NCBI GenBank assembly: GCA_037143195.1
Contig: JBAWZD010000002.1
Coordinates: 140,620 to 204,619, forward strand
Direction: 5' to 3'
Source of the DNA: a bacterium
GTDB lineage: Bacteria > Patescibacteriota > Minisyncoccia > Phycocordibacterales > UBA9973
DNA: 64,000 nucleotides
Part shown: piece by piece, positions 7,321-60,481 of the stretch
Position numbering within the stretch: position 1 is the first letter of the stretch
Layout of the letters: each line of letters starts with the position of its first letter
Translations under genes and position numbers: made by a program
Notes under the pieces: model-generated
Told to the model about the DNA's origin: nothing
The model's input: only the letters and a program-made list of their open reading frames with translations
Databases searched by the model: none

Positions 7321-7393
7321 CCACCCTTAGCTCAGTTGGTTAGAGCATCGAGCTTATACCTCGAGGGTCCTTGGTTCGAATCCAAGAGGGTGG
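7321..7393 (+). tRNA. tRNA-Ile with anticodon UAU (anticodon loop cTTATAc)
   Basis: acceptor CCACCCT/AGGGTGG, D-arm GCTC-agttggtta-GAGC, anticodon stem TCGAG/CTCGA, T-arm CTTGG-ttcgaat-CCAAG, discriminator A. Confidence 0.7.
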
Positions 7394-7400
7394 ACATTCT

Positions 7401-22035: not shown

Positions 22036-22103
22036 CTTAGTATAGGAATTATATAAGTGCTTGATTACAAAATAGTTTTTATAAAGTACGGCTTCACTAT
22101 CTG

Positions 22104-22189
22104 CGGAGGCGGTGAGATTCGAACTCACGGAACCAATTAAGGTTCGACGGTTTAGTAAACCGTTGATTTAAACCACTCATCCACGCCTC
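22104..22189 (-). tRNA. type II tRNA (Ser-like: long variable arm, discriminator G) with unusual anticodon loop uuACUaa
   Basis: RC reads GGAGGCG-tg-GAT..ATC-a-ACGGT-ttactaa-ACCGT-c-GAACC-ttaatt-GGTTC-c-GTGAG-ttcgaat-CTCAC-CGCCTCC-g. Confidence 0.6.
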
Positions 22190-22264
22190 CTGTTTCGCAC
22201 TGATGCAGTATAGCTTTTATCGTGAAATAGGCAAGGCGAATTGTTTTTGTATATAATAGTACAC

Positions 22265-57627: not shown

Positions 57628-58236
57628 ATGGATCCGAACGCAATCGGTACACAACTTCTCACTAAGCCTCTCTTTGACCCGAGTTTTTTAAACCTCGATT
57701 ATTGGTTTGGCAAAGTACTCGTCGTTTTCAATTGGTTCAAAGATTCACATGCAGGTGGACCAATCTATTTCGTTTCATATGTCCTCTCACTGTTTGGTAT
57801 TACGATGATCATCTACTGTCTCGTGCGTATGGTAGAGATTGCGTACGAAGAAGACGAACACTTGAAGCATGCGATTCATGAATATCAAGATCGTCACAAT
57901 GAGCGCGCGAATTCTAACCGCAATTTACGCTGGGAACATATTCAAGAATTACTCAACGCACCATCAAGCGCAGAATGGAGAATCGCCATTATGGAAGCTG
58001 ACAGTGTTCTCGAAGGTCTCCTTGTTGCACGAGACATTCCAGGGGCGGGGATTGGAGAGCGACTGAAAAATATGCCACCTGGCGACCTCAGTAGTATTCA
58101 GGCAGCATGGGAAGCACACCTTGTCCGCAATCGAATTGCTCACGAGGGAAGTGAATTCTCGCTCAGCCAGCGCGATGCTCGTCGTACGATTCAGCTCTAC
58201 GAGGTCGTTTTCCGTGAACTCGGCTTTTTGTCCTAA
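57628..58236 (+). CDS. hypothetical membrane protein (202 aa)
   Basis: one TM helix (FVSYVLSLFGITMIIYCLV). Confidence 0.5.
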   Translation: MDPNAIGTQLLTKPLFDPSFLNLDYWFGKVLVVFNWFKDSHAGGPIYFVSYVLSLFGITMIIYCLVRMVEIAYEEDEHLKHAIHEYQDRHNERANSNRNLRWEHIQELLNAPSSAEWRIAIMEADSVLEGLLVARDIPGAGIGERLKNMPPGDLSSIQAAWEAHLVRNRIAHEGSEFSLSQRDARRTIQLYEVVFRELGFLS

Positions 58237-58321
58237 GGTTGCTTTTTAACGTTTTTCTAGTACAATGCATCTGCGTCACAAGGCGCATTTTCATTTTTGC
58301 CGTAAGGCCAGATTGATTACG

Positions 58322-58392
58322 CGCGGGGTGGAGAAGTGGTATCTCGTAAGGCTCATAACCTTGAGACGGCTGTTCGATTCAGCCCCCCGCAA
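58322..58392 (+). tRNA. initiator tRNA-fMet (CAU)
   Basis: starts CGCGGGGTGGAG.. and ends CCCCGCAA giving C1xA72 mismatch; anticodon loop cuCAUaa. Confidence 0.85.
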
Positions 58393-58406
58393 CAAGAATA
58401 TCTCCT

Positions 58407-58664
58407 ATGTGGTTTGTCTACATTCTCATGTGCGAAGACGGTAGTTTGTATACAGGGATTACGACCGACCTCGATCGGCGTTTTCTTGAGCACAAAAACA
58501 AAAAAGGTGCGCGGTATACGCGCAGTCACGGTGTCGTTTCCTGTGTTTATTCTGAGCAGAGCGCCTCGCGCAGCGAGGCGCTCATCCGCGAAGCCGAGAT
58601 CAAGAAACTTCATAGGGAAGACAAGCTCGCTCTCGCAAAATCAAAAATATTGAAAAACTCCTAA
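58407..58664 (+). CDS. GIY-YIG nuclease family protein (UPF0213/YhbQ-like, 85 aa)
   Basis: MWFVYILMCEDGSLYTGITTDLDRRFLEHK GIY-YIG motif. Confidence 0.75.
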   Translation: MWFVYILMCEDGSLYTGITTDLDRRFLEHKNKKGARYTRSHGVVSCVYSEQSASRSEALIREAEIKKLHREDKLALAKSKILKNS

Positions 58665-58687
58665 AATGTGCTATATTTTCTTGGATT

Positions 58688-58761
58688 GTCGGCGTAGCTC
58701 AGTTAGTTAGAGCATCTCACTCATAAAGAGAAGGTCGCAGGTGCAACTCCTGCCGTCGACA
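58688..58761 (+). tRNA. tRNA with CAU anticodon (elongator Met or Ile2), atypical T-loop TGCAACT
   Basis: GTCGGCG-ta-GCTC-agttagtta-GAGC-a-TCTCA-ctCATaa-AGAGA-aggtc-GCAGG-tgcaact-CCTGC-CGTCGAC-a. Confidence 0.65.
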
Positions 58762-58833
58762 CCTTTTGATTTCTAAGGATTTTTTTGTACAGTCGGTTAG
58801 CGTATAGTACTGTCACAGTGTATACTTATAAAT

Positions 58834-59514
58834 ATGCCGACACAGAAGAAAGTGAATAAAAACTTTTTTAAAAAATGGACACCTGAAATGGCGTACGTGA
58901 TTGGCTTTTTTGCGGCAGATGGGTGTATTACTACGAATTCACGCGGTGGGCAATTTTGGTCTATTCAAATCACAGACAAGGAATTGCTTGAAACAATTAA
59001 GGACACAATCGGTGCCGAACACAAAATTGGTATCAGGAAAAAGAGACAACTATCACACAAAATATTATACCGTCTTCAGATTGGGAGTATTGAAATGTGT
59101 GATGATTTGCGTTCGCTCGGGTATGTTGAAAAAAAGACAGACCGCCTTGTTTTGCCAGATATTCCATCGAAGTATCTTTCAGATTTTGTAAGAGGGTATT
59201 TCGATGGGGATGGGAGCGTTTGGGTGGGGAAAATGCACACAGAACGAGTTACTTCGACTATTGTGATATCGGTCGCGTTTACTTCGGGCTCGTTTTCCTT
59301 TCTTGAATCACTCCAATCGGTGCTTCGAGTCTTGCTCGGCATGACAGGGAGTATCTCAAAACGAAAAGGGAAAGAGTGCTGGTGTTTACGCTACAGTGTC
59401 CGAGATAGTTTGAAATTGTACGATTTTATGTATAATAGCCATGTCCAGACAAATCGCCTTTTTTTGAACAGGAAGAAGGTCGTGTTTGAACAATATAAGG
59501 AAATGCAGTCGTAG
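58834..59514 (+). CDS. LAGLIDADG-family homing endonuclease, free-standing (two LAGLIDADG motifs)
   Basis: YVIGFFAADGCI and FVRGYFDGDGSV; own TTGTAC-N17-TATAGT promoter 58790-58820; stop codon lies inside exon 1 of tRNA-Asp. Confidence 0.75.
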   Translation: MPTQKKVNKNFFKKWTPEMAYVIGFFAADGCITTNSRGGQFWSIQITDKELLETIKDTIGAEHKIGIRKKRQLSHKILYRLQIGSIEMCDDLRSLGYVEKKTDRLVLPDIPSKYLSDFVRGYFDGDGSVWVGKMHTERVTSTIVISVAFTSGSFSFLESLQSVLRVLLGMTGSISKRKGKECWCLRYSVRDSLKLYDFMYNSHVQTNRLFLNRKKVVFEQYKEMQS

Positions 59515-59848
59515 CTCAACTGGTCAGAGCACTCCCCTGTAGATCGTGCAGCTTATTGCTGAAAGGCAGTTTGAAACTCTTTGGGATAACGGTGAAGGCT
59601 GACTCTCTTTTTTGGAGATATGCGAATACCGTGGGAACCCTTTCGGAAGCATTCGTGCTTCGCTTCGAATAGATTGAACCTACTTTCAGAGTAGCGTCTA
59701 CCGAAGGGAAGGGGCGCCGTAGAGACTAGATACCGAAGCACCTACTTTTGCCCTCGGGTAGATATGGTGAAGATATAGTCCATGCCATTACGAAAGTCGT
59801 GGATACCGTGCACGGGAGAGGTTGCGGGTTCGACCCCCGTCGACTGCG
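59505..59848 (+). tRNA. tRNA-Asp (GUC) interrupted in the anticodon loop; exon1 59505-59540, exon2 59811-59848
   Basis: exons join to GCAGTCG-ta-GCTC-aactggtca-GAGC-a-CTCCC-cuGUCac-GGGAG-aggtt-GCGGG-ttcgacc-CCCGT-CGACTGC-g; loop CUGUCAC identical to bacterial tRNA-Asp. Confidence 0.75.
59541..59810 (+). mobile_element. group I intron-like element (270 nt) in tRNA-Asp anticodon loop
   Basis: exon ends in U, intron ends in G; GCAG guide-like sequence 9-12 nt into intron pairs with exon cuGU; P7-like GACUA (59724-59728) ... UAGUC (59776-59780) elements. Confidence 0.6.
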
Positions 59849-59856
59849 CAGAAACA

Positions 59857-59888
59857 AAAGGTCACGCGTATGCGTGACCTTTTGTGTT
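59857..59888 (+). terminator. terminator after tRNA-Asp
   Basis: aaaaGGTCACGCgtatGCGTGACCttttgt. Confidence 0.7.
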
Positions 59889-59896
59889 ATCCTTTG

Positions 59897-60481
59897 AGTA
59901 TGACTGTGTATCAGCTCCTCGGCTATCTCTCTGCGATCATATTCACGATCGGATATATTCCATACGTCATTTCGATTGCGAAAGGGAAGACCAAACCGCA
60001 CCCATTTAGTTGGATGCTTTGGACGATTGCGGGACTCGTCAGTACATATTTGTACATTCAAGTCGGCGCCCGCGAAACGTTGCCATTTGCATTTGCTGGA
60101 TGTATTTTGCCGTTCATCATCACTTGTATTTCGTTTCGCAATTGGGAAGGTGGTTTTTCATTGTTCGATTATCTCTGTTTCGGATGTTCACTGCTTGCGA
60201 TCGTGACATACGTGATGTTTCACTCGGCAAACTTTTCTCTAACGATTAGCTTGTGTGCTGACGCAATCGCGTTCCTCCCAACAATGCGTAAGACGTATCA
60301 AGACGCTTCGACAGAGAGTTTGACGACGTGGAAACTTTTTCTCGCAAGTTATATCCTCTCACTTTTTGCGACACTGCCCCGTTTTTCATACGGAGTTGTA
60401 CTTTTTCCCGCATACCTAAGTGTCTGTGGCACCATAATGTGTTGGCTCATCTTTCGGGGAAGATTGAAAAAAGCCTCATAA
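59897..60481 (+). CDS. hypothetical polytopic membrane protein (~195 aa)
   Basis: MTVYQLLGYLSAIIFTIGYIPYVI..., 6 predicted TM. Confidence 0.55.
   Translation, partial: SMTVYQLLGYLSAIIFTIGYIPYVISIAKGKTKPHPFSWMLWTIAGLVSTYLYIQVGARETLPFAFAGCILPFIITCISFRNWEGGFSLFDYLCFGCSLLAIVTYVMFHSANFSLTISLCADAIAFLPTMRKTYQDASTESLTTWKLFLASYILSLFATLPRFSYGVVLFPAYLSVCGTIMCWLIFRGRLKKAS

What the first reader, a model, noticed from the sequence alone, without database searches (positions are those of the whole stretch)
58834..59514. Free-standing LAGLIDADG homing endonuclease gene abutting and overlapping exon 1 of the intron-containing tRNA-Asp
Seen: a 226-aa ORF has two LAGLIDADG motifs (YVIGFFAADGCI, FVRGYFDGDGSV) and its own promoter-like TTGTAC-N17-TATAGT. 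Its last three codons lie inside the tRNA-Asp acceptor/D-arm (..ATG CAG TCG TAG ctc). The HE gene is outside the intron, not inside it. Established: intron-less or free-standing HEGs next to intron-bearing genes occur in T-even phages, where the intron and a neighbouring HEG can mobilise together (collaborative homing). Inference: the same arrangement may operate here at a tRNA gene in a bacterial chromosome.
Basis: partly seen in the sequence, partly recalled or inferred. Interest (0 to 1): 0.75.

Follow-up and report, generated by a model that had tools for sequence, protein, structure and literature searches.

The report
Homing endonuclease gene docked onto tRNA-Asp
A selfish DNA-cutting enzyme gene sits directly in front of an intron-split tRNA-Asp gene in an ultra-small (Patescibacteria) bacterium, and comparison with about 120 related loci suggests that it targets the uninterrupted tRNA-Asp gene, so it may be what spreads an intron that has no mobility gene of its own.

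Summary
The core observation is real. ORF 58834-59514 encodes a 226-aa two-domain LAGLIDADG endonuclease. Its stop codon is tRNA-Asp positions 8-10. The tRNA carries a 270-nt group I intron at 35/36 (59541-59810).

This is one member of a large, apparently undescribed family. At least 502 Paceibacteria species carry it, always as tRNA-Met -> endonuclease gene (HEG) -> tRNA-Asp.

In a sample chosen without regard to the HEG, only 4 of about 41 loci have it. Many HEG-less loci keep relics of its 3' end, so it is gained or lost rather than universal.

The intron is present in 40/82 HEG+ loci but 1/37 HEG- loci.

The HEG promoter contains a conserved collinear copy of intronless tRNA-Asp positions 17-39, which spans the intron site. 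This is most simply a target-site mimic acting as an operator.

HEG+ genomes without the intron mostly carry variant tRNA-Asp sequences at those positions.

The last codons of the HEG contain the tRNA-Asp promoter.

Best reading: a free-standing HEG that targets intronless tRNA-Asp, with immunity from the intron or from target variants ("collaborative homing"). Cleavage is untested. It is a new variant of a known kind.

The parts
58650..58677 (+). Promoter-like site TTGAAA-N16-TATATT (with TG), 10 nt before tRNA-Met. It is a possible start of read-through transcription into the cassette.
   Evidence: Consensus scan. It is the only + strand promoter-like hit in 58300-60100.
58688..58763 (+). 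tRNA-Met(CAU). This is the conserved upstream neighbour of the cassette and, by inference, the left homology arm for gene conversion.
   Evidence: ARAGORN and Rfam, 64 bits. A + strand tRNA-Met precedes the endonuclease gene in nearly all of the 80 related loci.
58795..58826 (+). Conserved upstream element GGTTAG-N9-CTGTCAC-N4-TATACT. It is a collinear mimic of intronless tRNA-Asp DNA (D-loop to anticodon loop, across intron site 35/36: CTGT|CAC) lying inside the endonuclease gene's own promoter. It is the putative operator. The -10 box ends 7 nt before the ATG, which predicts a leaderless mRNA.
   Evidence: Present in 53/81 endonuclease-positive loci within 200 nt upstream of the start, against 1 hit in 696 kb elsewhere in the same loci. 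Consensus TGGTTAGTatAATntCCTGTCACGtGgTATAAT. It is the only match in the window. The -10 box ends 6 nt before the start codon in 35/56 loci. The flanks of CTGTCAC show no stem covariation.
58834..59514 (+). Free-standing LAGLIDADG homing endonuclease gene, 226 aa, with catalytic D29 and D126.
   Evidence: The AlphaFold model has pLDDT 89.4 and pTM 0.87, with two alpha-beta-beta-alpha-beta-beta-alpha domains. Foldseek top hits are I-Tsp061I, I-AniI and the I-OnuI family. There are 2153 homologues. D29 and D126 are invariant.
59410..59436 (+). tRNA-Asp promoter embedded in codons L193-N201 (TTGAAA-N15-TATAAT), 68 nt before tRNA position +1.
   Evidence: Codon choice is fixed at the DNA level: TTG 55/62 against a 20% background (p = 3e-29), and TAT and AAT 63/63 each. 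The same 29-nt block survives as non-coding DNA 8-9 nt or 59-68 nt before tRNA-Asp in 13/36 loci lacking the endonuclease gene.
59505..59540 (+). tRNA-Asp(GUC) exon 1 (positions 1-35). It overlaps the end of the ORF by 10 nt and ends in U35.
59541..59810 (+). Group I intron at tRNA position 35/36, 270 nt, with no ORF. The internal guide GCAG pairs with exon CUGU (a U.G pair at the splice site), and the last base is G.
   Evidence: The P1 pairing is read directly from the sequence. The intron class is described and shown to self-splice in vitro in PMC13011429.
59811..59849 (+). tRNA-Asp exon 2 (positions 36-76).
59854..59885 (+). Terminator-like hairpin (14-bp stem) directly after tRNA-Asp. It is the likely end of the transcription unit.

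Best explanation
The window holds one copy of a widespread cassette specific to Paceibacteria. It is a free-standing LAGLIDADG homing endonuclease gene (HEG) lodged between tRNA-Met and tRNA-Asp.

Shown:
- The protein is an intact two-domain LAGLIDADG enzyme with both catalytic Asp residues.
- The cassette always occupies this one site.
- It is present in a minority of related genomes. Many 'empty' sites still carry relics of its 3' end.
- It carries a conserved copy of intronless tRNA-Asp positions ~17-39 inside its own promoter.
- Its last ~30 codons contain the promoter of tRNA-Asp.
- Its stop codon normally lies inside the tRNA.

Inferred:
- The enzyme recognises about 22 bp of the intronless tRNA-Asp gene (GGTTAG-N9-CTGTCACG, D-loop to anticodon loop) and cuts HEG-less alleles.
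- Repair from a HEG+ donor uses the conserved tRNA-Met and tRNA-Asp as homology arms. It copies in the HEG and, when the donor has it, the ORF-less group I intron a few bases away at 35/36.
- A HEG+ genome is protected in one of two ways. Either the intron splits the site, as in this window, or the resident tRNA-Asp has nucleotide or spacing variants.
- The promoter-embedded mimic, with an AT-rich centre, is bound but not cut, giving autorepression as shown for I-TevI.
- The embedded tRNA-Asp promoter penalises clean deletion of the HEG.
- More speculatively, RNase P cleavage at tRNA position +1 removes the stop codon. Processed transcripts would then be non-stop mRNAs, which keeps enzyme levels low.
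For: Family and fold.

Fixed locus: in the 80 genome loci the order is tRNA-Met -> HEG -> tRNA-Asp, often followed by tRNA-Thr x2 and preceded by gatC-gatA-P202. The stop codon lies inside tRNA-Asp in 65/77 loci and equals U8A9G10 in 47.

Patchiness: in a sample chosen through the neighbouring gene P202, 4 loci are HEG+ and about 37 are HEG-.

Deletion relics: HEG residues ~189-221 are detectable in HEG-less spacers (tblastn E = 4e-7 to 5e-4). The exact string TTATGTATAAT occurs in 13/36 HEG-less spacers.

Intron association: 40/82 vs 1/37, p = 1.7e-7.

Target mimic: 15 conserved positions match tRNA-Asp with identical spacing. The motif is in 53/81 HEG+ loci, against 1 hit in 696 kb of control sequence. 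It is a linear sequence, not a hairpin.

Immunity pattern, scored as an exact GGTTAG-N9-CTGT in the tRNA-Asp gene:
- 23/36 HEG-/intronless loci
- 26/39 HEG+/intron+ loci
- 6/41 HEG+/intronless loci (p = 1.4e-5 and 2.8e-6)
The closest matched pair fits: L053 (HEG+, 1-nt insertion variant) against L124 (HEG-, exact site), 76% identical in the flanks.

Embedded promoter: synonymous codons are fixed.

Leaderless spacing.

Host/HEG discordance: L053-L066 have GatA 77% identical but HEG 44% identical.

Precedents:
- F-CphI/psbA collaborative homing (PMC6083498)
- the I-TevI operator that mimics its homing site (PMC2988022)
- promoters embedded in T4 free-standing HEGs (PMC2988022)
- SegB in the T4 tRNA cluster (PMC2988022)
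Against: - No cleavage, binding or transcript data exist. The target is inferred only from the mimic and from allele statistics.
- The HEG+ sample (GTDB genomes, picked by HEG similarity) and the HEG- sample (metagenome contigs, picked by P202 similarity to the window) differ in origin and probably in phylogenetic spread. The Fisher tests ignore relatedness.
- The short D-loop type (GGTAG) is equally common in all three classes.
- Six HEG+/intronless loci keep an exact site. Three of them (L056, L059, L064) lack the upstream motif.
- Half of HEG+ genomes lack the intron, so co-mobilisation is not obligatory.
- No strain-level pair differing only in HEG presence was found; the best flank identity is 76%.
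- The HEG is as conserved as GatA (mean identity 0.50 vs 0.56), which also fits a host function.
- The embedded promoter has a 15-nt spacer, shorter than the usual 16-18 nt.
Confidence: 0.6

Rival explanations
1. Domesticated LAGLIDADG protein. The gene is kept for a host function, for example as a splicing helper (maturase) for the tRNA-Asp intron or other group I introns, or as a DNA-binding regulator of the tRNA operon. In this reading the upstream motif is an ordinary operator.
For: - Intact ORFs are found in at least 502 species at one fixed locus.
- Conservation is similar to GatA.
- The best sequence-level hit in the PDB is the bI3 maturase, and I-AniI (both nuclease and maturase) is among the top structural matches.
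- Group I introns are frequent in neighbouring tRNAs of these genomes.
Against: - Only about 10% of loci have the gene in the sample chosen without regard to it, and deletion relics are seen elsewhere.
- Half of the carriers have no tRNA-Asp intron.
- A homologous tRNA-Asp intron self-splices in vitro without protein (PMC13011429).
- Both catalytic Asp residues are invariant.
- Phage relatives are ordinary free-standing endonuclease genes.
Confidence: 0.12
2. A mobile endonuclease gene (HEG) with a different target, such as the tRNA-Met/tRNA-Asp spacer or the 5' end of the tRNA. The intron is an independent passenger of the same lineages. The GGTTAG..CTGTCAC element is a fossil of a duplicated tRNA-Asp 5' half, reused as a promoter.
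For: - Duplicated or pseudo tRNA-Asp 5' fragments do occur next to the cassette in about 10 loci, so partial tRNA duplications happen here.
- T4 SegB cuts in a tRNA intergenic region (PMC2988022).
- The intron state changes many times on the HEG tree.
- The association statistics are not corrected for relatedness.
Against: - A fossil would not keep 15 positions at 80-100% conservation, with exact spacing, across lineages whose proteins are only about 50% identical, while the 9 nt between them are rewritten.
- CTGTCAC sits in the promoter spacer, where sequence is normally free to vary.
- The intron is almost absent from HEG-less loci (1/37).
- Intronless carriers are depleted for the exact tRNA sequence.
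Confidence: 0.2
3. An inactive, decaying remnant of an old invasion. It has no current activity and is kept only because it contains the tRNA-Asp promoter and overlaps the tRNA.
For: - The embedded promoter and the overlap would slow loss of the gene.
- Many lineages have lost all but the promoter.
Against: - The promoter occupies only codons 193-201. This cannot explain full-length intact ORFs, invariant catalytic and core residues, a conserved N-terminus and a conserved dedicated promoter and operator in dozens of species.
- Where selection lapsed, the 5' ~190 codons were deleted.
Confidence: 0.05

Closest known systems
[quoted passage not shown]
   Same: A free-standing endonuclease gene lies next to a gene interrupted by an ORF-less group I intron. 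The enzyme's (here inferred) site spans the intron insertion site, so the intron protects the carrier and can be carried along during repair.
   Different: - This is a cellular chromosome (Patescibacteria), not a phage.
- The target is a tRNA gene, not a protein-coding gene.
- The enzyme is a LAGLIDADG protein, not an Endo VII-like one.
- Half of the carriers lack the intron and appear to rely on target variants instead.
- The gene overlaps its target gene and contains that gene's promoter.
- Cleavage has not been tested.
I-TevI autorepression through an operator that resembles its homing site (PMC2988022)
   Same: A sequence resembling the homing site overlaps the endonuclease gene's own promoter but lacks the features needed for cleavage. 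The identity is comparable: about 20 of 27 positions by my manual alignment of the two consensus sequences, against 15 of 20 for I-TevI.
   Different: - I-TevI is a GIY-YIG enzyme encoded inside an intron, and its binding and repression were demonstrated.
- Here the enzyme is LAGLIDADG and free-standing, the mimic sits in the spacer between the -35 and -10 boxes, and its function is inferred only.
T4 free-standing endonuclease genes: SegB in the tRNA gene cluster, mobE/I-TevIII trans-homing, and promoters embedded in seg/mob genes (PMC2988022, PMC2790892)
   Same: - An optional nuclease gene lies between conserved genes.
- It contains an embedded promoter for the downstream essential gene, which favours retention.
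- SegB also resides among tRNA genes.
- An intron can be mobilised in trans by a neighbouring endonuclease.
   Different: - The T4 enzymes are GIY-YIG or HNH enzymes in a phage.
- Their ORFs do not end inside a tRNA.
- No operator mimic has been reported for these free-standing genes.
Group I introns at position 35/36 of tRNA-Asp and tRNA-Asn in Patescibacteria (Nakagawa et al. 2026, PMC13011429)
   Same: The intron in this window is of that kind: position 35/36, ORF-less, and missed by default tRNA finders.
   Different: That study looked for endonuclease genes only inside introns. It concluded that mobility is limited because most tRNA introns lack such genes. The adjacent free-standing LAGLIDADG gene is not mentioned.
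Structurally characterised monomeric LAGLIDADG enzymes (I-Tsp061I, I-AniI, I-HjeMI, I-OnuI family)
   Same: The same two-domain fold, with a catalytic acidic residue at the end of each LAGLIDADG helix.
   Different: - Sequence identity is only 13-19%, and the sequence profile barely reaches them (E about 1e-3 to 1e-4).
- Those enzymes are encoded inside introns.
- This protein has an extra conserved C-terminal helix (residues 212-225) whose last codons are dictated by the tRNA acceptor stem.

Membership tests
LAGLIDADG homing endonuclease (monomeric, two-domain) | Two LAGLIDADG motifs, each ending in a conserved acidic residue | tested here: met
   GFFAADG (D29) and GYFDGDG (D126). Both Asp residues are invariant in 32 aligned homologues.
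LAGLIDADG homing endonuclease (monomeric, two-domain) | Profile match above the curated cut-off | tested here: met
   PF14528 scores 65.2 bits against a cut-off of 22.5. PF00961 scores 33.9 bits against 23.1.
LAGLIDADG homing endonuclease (monomeric, two-domain) | Alpha-beta-beta-alpha-beta-beta-alpha fold, present twice | tested here: met
   The AlphaFold model (pLDDT 89.4) shows that order of elements twice. All top Foldseek matches in the PDB are LAGLIDADG enzymes, the best at E = 9e-10.
LAGLIDADG homing endonuclease (monomeric, two-domain) | Site-specific double-strand cleavage of a ~20-22 bp site, leaving 4-nt 3' overhangs | not testable with these tools
   Needs purified protein and DNA substrates.
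LAGLIDADG homing endonuclease (monomeric, two-domain) | Behaves as an optional element: present or absent at the same locus among relatives | tested here: met
   4 loci with the gene against about 37 without it in the sample chosen through the neighbouring gene, with deletion relics in the empty sites.
Collaborative homing (free-standing endonuclease plus ORF-less intron, F-CphI type) | The endonuclease gene lies outside the intron and next to the intron-bearing gene | tested here: met
   The same holds in about 40 related loci.
Collaborative homing (free-standing endonuclease plus ORF-less intron, F-CphI type) | The enzyme cuts the intronless allele at or near the intron insertion site | not testable with these tools
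   There is only indirect support: the promoter mimic of tRNA-Asp positions 17-39 spans position 35/36.
Collaborative homing (free-standing endonuclease plus ORF-less intron, F-CphI type) | The intron protects the carrier genome from self-cleavage | tested here: inconclusive
   Exons of intron-containing carriers keep the exact site (26/39), whereas intronless carriers mostly do not (6/41), p = 2.8e-6. This is correlative and not corrected for relatedness.
Collaborative homing (free-standing endonuclease plus ORF-less intron, F-CphI type) | Intron and endonuclease gene co-occur | tested here: inconclusive
   There is strong enrichment (40/82 vs 1/37). However, half of the carriers lack the intron, and one intron-bearing locus (L082) has lost the gene.
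Group I intron (tRNA position 35/36 class of Patescibacteria) | [quoted passage not shown] | tested here: met
   The junctions read CTGT|A... and ...GTG|CAC. The spliced product is called tRNA-Asp(GUC).
Group I intron (tRNA position 35/36 class of Patescibacteria) | Match to the Rfam RF00028 covariance model at the gathering score | tested here: inconclusive
   The window copy scores 26.6 bits, below the 50-bit threshold, with E = 4e-4 over the full model. Homologous introns at the same site in L055 and L017 score 83.6 and 82.2 bits.
Group I intron (tRNA position 35/36 class of Patescibacteria) | Self-splicing | not testable with these tools
   Shown in vitro for the tRNA-Asp intron of another Patescibacteria genome (PMC13011429).
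Homing-endonuclease autorepressor with a target-mimic operator (I-TevI type) | A sequence similar to the homing site overlaps the endonuclease gene's own promoter | tested here: met
   TGGTTAG-N9-CTGTCACG lies between the -35 and -10 boxes and matches the tRNA-Asp gene with identical spacing. That the tRNA-Asp sequence is the homing site is itself an inference.
Homing-endonuclease autorepressor with a target-mimic operator (I-TevI type) | The protein binds the operator and represses transcription without cutting it | not testable with these tools
   Needs gel-shift and reporter assays.
LAGLIDADG maturase | Encoded within the intron whose splicing it assists | tested here: not met
   The ORF lies upstream of exon 1, and the family occurs with intronless tRNA-Asp in about 41 loci.

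The most novel reading that the evidence does not exclude
A chromosomal collaborative-homing system in ultra-small bacteria. A free-standing LAGLIDADG enzyme targets the intronless tRNA-Asp gene and thereby drives an ORF-less group I intron through Paceibacteria. This would explain how tRNA introns without mobility genes persist in these reduced genomes. The cassette is held in check by three features: a promoter operator that mimics its own target, a host tRNA promoter buried in its coding sequence, and a stop codon that RNase P removes when it matures the tRNA.
Probability: 0.4. Interest if true: 0.8.

Novelty: new variant of a known kind. Interest (0 to 1): 0.72.

Why it matters
The one systematic study of tRNA introns in Patescibacteria found that they mostly lack endonuclease genes and concluded that they are largely immobile (PMC13011429). 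If the neighbouring free-standing endonuclease cuts intronless tRNA-Asp, that conclusion would need revising for tRNA-Asp. It would also make this the first collaborative-homing arrangement I found described for a cellular chromosome and for a tRNA gene.

The family offers a natural series of alleles: susceptible, intron-protected, variant-protected and deleted. These make the homing cycle directly testable.

It would also add compact (~226 aa) LAGLIDADG enzymes with a predicted, highly conserved 22-bp target that is present in the tRNA-Asp of many bacteria.

The stop codon inside the tRNA suggests a possible link between tRNA maturation and the amount of a selfish gene's product.

Tried and rejected
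1. Host versus endonuclease co-phylogeny by correlating pairwise identities. Correlations were HEG-P202 0.19, HEG-GatA 0.23 and P202-GatA 0.19. The host-host baseline is just as weak, so the test cannot separate vertical from horizontal inheritance. Only individual discordant pairs are suggestive.

2. An RNA-level mimic of the tRNA-Asp anticodon arm in the 5' region. The flanks of CTGTCAC pair in 56% of cases against 53% when shuffled (169/1000 shuffles reach the observed value). Rejected in favour of recognition of linear duplex DNA.

3. A relic of the tRNA-Asp acceptor stem in the window (ACAGTCG at 58790-58796). It is not seen in other loci, so I treat it as chance.

4. A phage vector. IMG/VR contigs hold only distant relatives (at most 38% identity), and only 1 of 80 lies among tRNA genes.

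5. Strain-level alleles with and without the gene, to define the cassette ends exactly. None was closer than 76% identity in the flanks.

6. A sequence search against solved structures. Only weak hits were found, so fold comparison was needed.

7. The spacing was miscounted.

8. The maturase reading. See the rival explanations.
Full report
OBSERVATION

The ORF 58834-59514 (+) encodes 226 aa with the motifs YVIGFFAADGCI and FVRGYFDGDGSV. It matches Pfam LAGLIDADG_3 (6.7e-18) and LAGLIDADG_1 (6.2e-8).

The downstream tRNA begins at 59505 (GCAGTCG-TA-GCTC...). The ORF therefore ends AT|G CAG TCG TAG, and its stop codon is tRNA positions U8-A9-G10.

ARAGORN without the intron option misses the tRNA. 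With it, the call is tRNA-Asp(GUC) at 59505-59849 with a 270-nt intron, 59541-59810. Joining 59540 to 59811 gives a canonical tRNA-Asp.

The 5' exon ends in U and the intron ends in G. An intron GCAG can pair with exon CUGU (P1, read directly).

Rfam's group I model matches 59531-59802 end to end but below its gathering score: 26.6 vs 50 bits, E = 4e-4. Introns at the same site in relatives exceed it, at 83.6 and 82.2 bits.

Introns at 35/36 of tRNA-Asp in Patescibacteria have been described, and one was shown to self-splice in vitro (PMC13011429).

TTGTAC (58785-58790) and TATAGT (58803-58808) are 12 nt apart, not 17.

THE PROTEIN

An AlphaFold model built from 32 homologues is confident (pLDDT 89.4, pTM 0.87). 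It shows two alpha-beta-beta-alpha-beta-beta-alpha domains plus a C-terminal helix.

All top Foldseek hits in the PDB are LAGLIDADG enzymes: I-Tsp061I, I-AniI, I-HjeMI and the I-OnuI family. Sequence similarity to them is marginal.

D29 and D126, at the ends of the two LAGLIDADG helices, are invariant.

A LARGE FAMILY WITH A FIXED ADDRESS

The protein has 2153 homologues, typically 55-60% identical and about 225 aa long. At least 502 GTDB species representatives encode one. Nearly all are Paceibacteria/Parcubacteria-type Patescibacteria.

In the 80 loci fetched the order is the same: tRNA-Met(CAU), 60-150 nt, the endonuclease gene (HEG), then tRNA-Asp(GUC). Two tRNA-Thr genes often follow, and gatC-gatA-P202 often lie upstream.

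The stop codon lies inside tRNA-Asp in 65 of 77 loci and is U8A9G10 in 47. This explains why the C-termini read M-[RQ]-[LSPAV]: those codons are the acceptor stem.

OPTIONAL, NOT UNIVERSAL

I sampled loci through the neighbouring gene P202, without regard to the HEG. About 41 loci captured the tRNA-Met/tRNA-Asp pair. Four have the HEG. About 37 have tRNA-Met followed by tRNA-Asp after 12-426 nt.

Many of these 'empty' spacers contain relics of the HEG's 3' end:
- In-frame remnants of residues ~189-221 are found in L102, L082, L147/L148, L095 and L110 (tblastn E = 4e-7 to 0.04).
- The exact string TTATGTATAAT occurs in 13 of 36 spacers. It lies 8-9 nt or 59-68 nt before tRNA position +1.

These alleles are therefore deletion derivatives of carriers.

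Some closely related hosts carry distant HEGs, for example L053/L066 with GatA 77% but HEG 44% identical. A global distance correlation was uninformative.

A HOST PROMOTER INSIDE THE HEG

The retained block cTTTGAAA-N15-TATAAT (window 59410-59436) encodes the conserved S-L-K-L-Y-D-F-M-Y-N.

Its synonymous sites are frozen:
- Leu is TTG in 55/62 loci, against a 20% background (p = 3e-29).
- Lys is AAA in 46/47.
- Tyr is TAT and Asn is AAT in 63/63 each, against a 75% background (p ~ 5e-8).

It resembles the window's tRNA-Met promoter, TTGAAA-N16-TATATT, which lies 10 nt before that tRNA.

I read it as the tRNA-Asp promoter, embedded in the HEG. T4 free-standing endonuclease genes show the same arrangement, which is thought to favour their retention (PMC2988022).

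A MIMIC OF THE tRNA-Asp GENE IN THE HEG'S OWN PROMOTER

Directly upstream of the start codon most loci share TGGTTAG-TatAATntC-CTGTCACG-nGg-TATAAT-N6-ATG/GTG. In the window this is GGTTAGcgtatagtaCTGTCACagtgTATACT, 58795-58826.

The two conserved blocks and their 9-nt spacing are those of the intronless tRNA-Asp gene from the D-loop to the anticodon loop (TGGTTAG-AGCACCCGC-CTGTCACG). The element therefore spans the intron site CTGT|CAC.

A pattern allowing a few mismatches hits 53 of 81 HEG+ loci in the 200 nt upstream. It hits once in 696 kb elsewhere in the same loci. In the window it occurs only here.

The flanks of CTGTCAC do not covary as a stem. The element is therefore a linear, DNA-level signal.

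The -10 box ends 6 nt before the start codon in 35 of 56 loci, which predicts a leaderless mRNA.

A 22-23 bp conserved duplex is the size of a LAGLIDADG site. A homing-site look-alike overlapping the enzyme's own promoter is exactly how I-TevI represses itself (PMC2988022).

INTRON, HEG AND TARGET SEQUENCE

The intron is present in 40 of 82 HEG+ loci and in 1 of 37 HEG- loci, p = 1.7e-7. The single exception, L082, still has a HEG relic.

An exact GGTTAG-N9-CTGT in the tRNA-Asp gene is found in:
- 23/36 HEG-/intronless alleles;
- 26/39 HEG+/intron-containing alleles (in the exons);
- 6/41 HEG+/intronless alleles.

The last group instead shows a 1-nt insertion after GGTTAG, or GGTTAAC, GGCTAA or TTGTCAC (p = 1.4e-5 and 2.8e-6). 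Three of the six exceptions lack the upstream motif.

The closest matched pair fits the pattern: L053 (HEG+, insertion variant) against L124 (HEG-, exact site, promoter relic), 76% identical in the flanks.

The window's nearest HEG-less relative in the sample, L081, has a 53-nt spacer and an exact, intronless site.

Caveats:
- The two samples differ in origin.
- The tests ignore relatedness.
- The short D-loop type (GGTAG) is equally common in all classes.
- On a neighbour-joining tree of the HEG the intron state is clustered but changes about 17 times, against 25.5 expected at random.

INTERPRETATION

Shown:
- The gene is an intact, optional, free-standing LAGLIDADG gene of a large family tied to tRNA-Asp.
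- It contains an embedded tRNA promoter.
- It ends inside the tRNA.
- Its promoter contains a copy of the intronless tRNA-Asp sequence.
- It is statistically linked to the intron and to variant tRNA-Asp alleles.

Inferred:
- The enzyme cuts intronless consensus tRNA-Asp genes.
- Repair from a carrier uses tRNA-Met and tRNA-Asp as homology arms. It copies in the HEG and often the intron.
- Carriers are immune through the intron or through target variants.
- The mimic is an operator that is bound but not cut.
- RNase P cleavage at position +1 would strip the stop codon and limit protein output.

This is the F-CphI/psbA 'collaborative homing' logic (PMC6083498), moved to a bacterial chromosome and a tRNA gene and combined with regulation of the T4 kind.

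RIVALS

Three rivals are less well supported: a domesticated maturase or regulator, a mobile HEG with another target, and an inactive relic. See the rival entries.

NOVELTY

The intron class is known. The study that described it searched for endonuclease genes only inside introns and inferred limited mobility. I found no paper in the library describing a free-standing LAGLIDADG gene at tRNA-Asp.

I rate this a new variant of a known kind. It is of real interest to people working on mobile introns and on Patescibacteria, but it depends on a cleavage assay.

Noticed in passing
L024:1466-1513; L087:6050-6098; L090 (- strand); L130 (- strand); also L013:3665-3735, L018:1075-1380, L047:1130-1200, L146 spacer, L043 and L046 just after the stop codon: There are pseudo-tRNA-Asp 5' fragments between the endonuclease gene (or its relic) and the real tRNA-Asp. 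In one conserved type the D-loop GGTTAG is replaced (CTCAATTAGACT..) and 4-5 nt of the anticodon loop are missing (CCTG|GCGG or CCTAGGCGG). These are the two blocks of the putative target, and a 4-nt loss is the size of a LAGLIDADG overhang. Other loci have tandem copies of GCGGnnGTAGCTG..., or an acceptor-like minihelix after the stop codon. They could be repair scars, decoys or processing signals.
   Followed up: partly
window 58407-58664 (+): An 85-aa ORF consisting only of a GIY-YIG domain (Pfam 1.8e-18) sits between tRNA-fMet (58322-58393, C1:A72 mismatch) and tRNA-Met. A homologue at this spot was found in only 2 of 81 loci. It may be a second optional nuclease gene in the same tRNA cluster.
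   Followed up: partly
window 22103-22190 (-), 29502-29589 (-), 7321-7395 (+); L126:8474-8563: ARAGORN calls a tRNA-Ser with anticodon ACU (A34, loop TTACTAA) alongside a normal tRNA-Ser(GCU). The same pair recurs in L126. It also calls a tRNA-Ile(UAU). A34 outside tRNA-Arg is unusual in bacteria.
   Followed up: partly
L001:2541-2818, L003:1762-2060, L006:889-1153, L014:5850-6107, L046, L051, L058, L069:4805-5070, L141, L153 and others: Intron-containing calls are frequent for neighbouring tRNAs in relatives: tRNA-Met/fMet (~33/34), tRNA-Thr(GGU), Leu, Arg(GCG), His and Ser(UGA). Some anticodon assignments by ARAGORN are probably shifted, as the literature warns. None of these was checked for an adjacent endonuclease gene.
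   Followed up: no
window 57628-58236 (+): P202 is a 202-aa protein with no Pfam match. It has a hydrophobic N-terminal half and a conserved C-terminal domain (W..A..EAD...AWxAHxxRNxIAH). It lies upstream of the tRNA cluster across Paceibacteria, and at least 584 metagenome stretches encode a relative.
   Followed up: partly
L161-L240 (IMG/VR contigs): Hundreds of viral contigs encode distant relatives (27-38% identity) of this LAGLIDADG family as free-standing genes. Only one (L198, from a 427-kb contig) lies inside a tRNA cluster.
   Followed up: partly
L056, L059, L064, L071, L078: In a divergent subgroup the endonuclease ORF starts 2-17 nt after tRNA-Met, with no promoter or mimic of its own, so it is presumably co-transcribed with tRNA-Met. 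Three of these loci (L056, L059, L064) also keep an exact intronless target, and L056 and L071 end with their own TAA before the tRNA. These enzymes may be regulated differently or be inactive.
   Followed up: no
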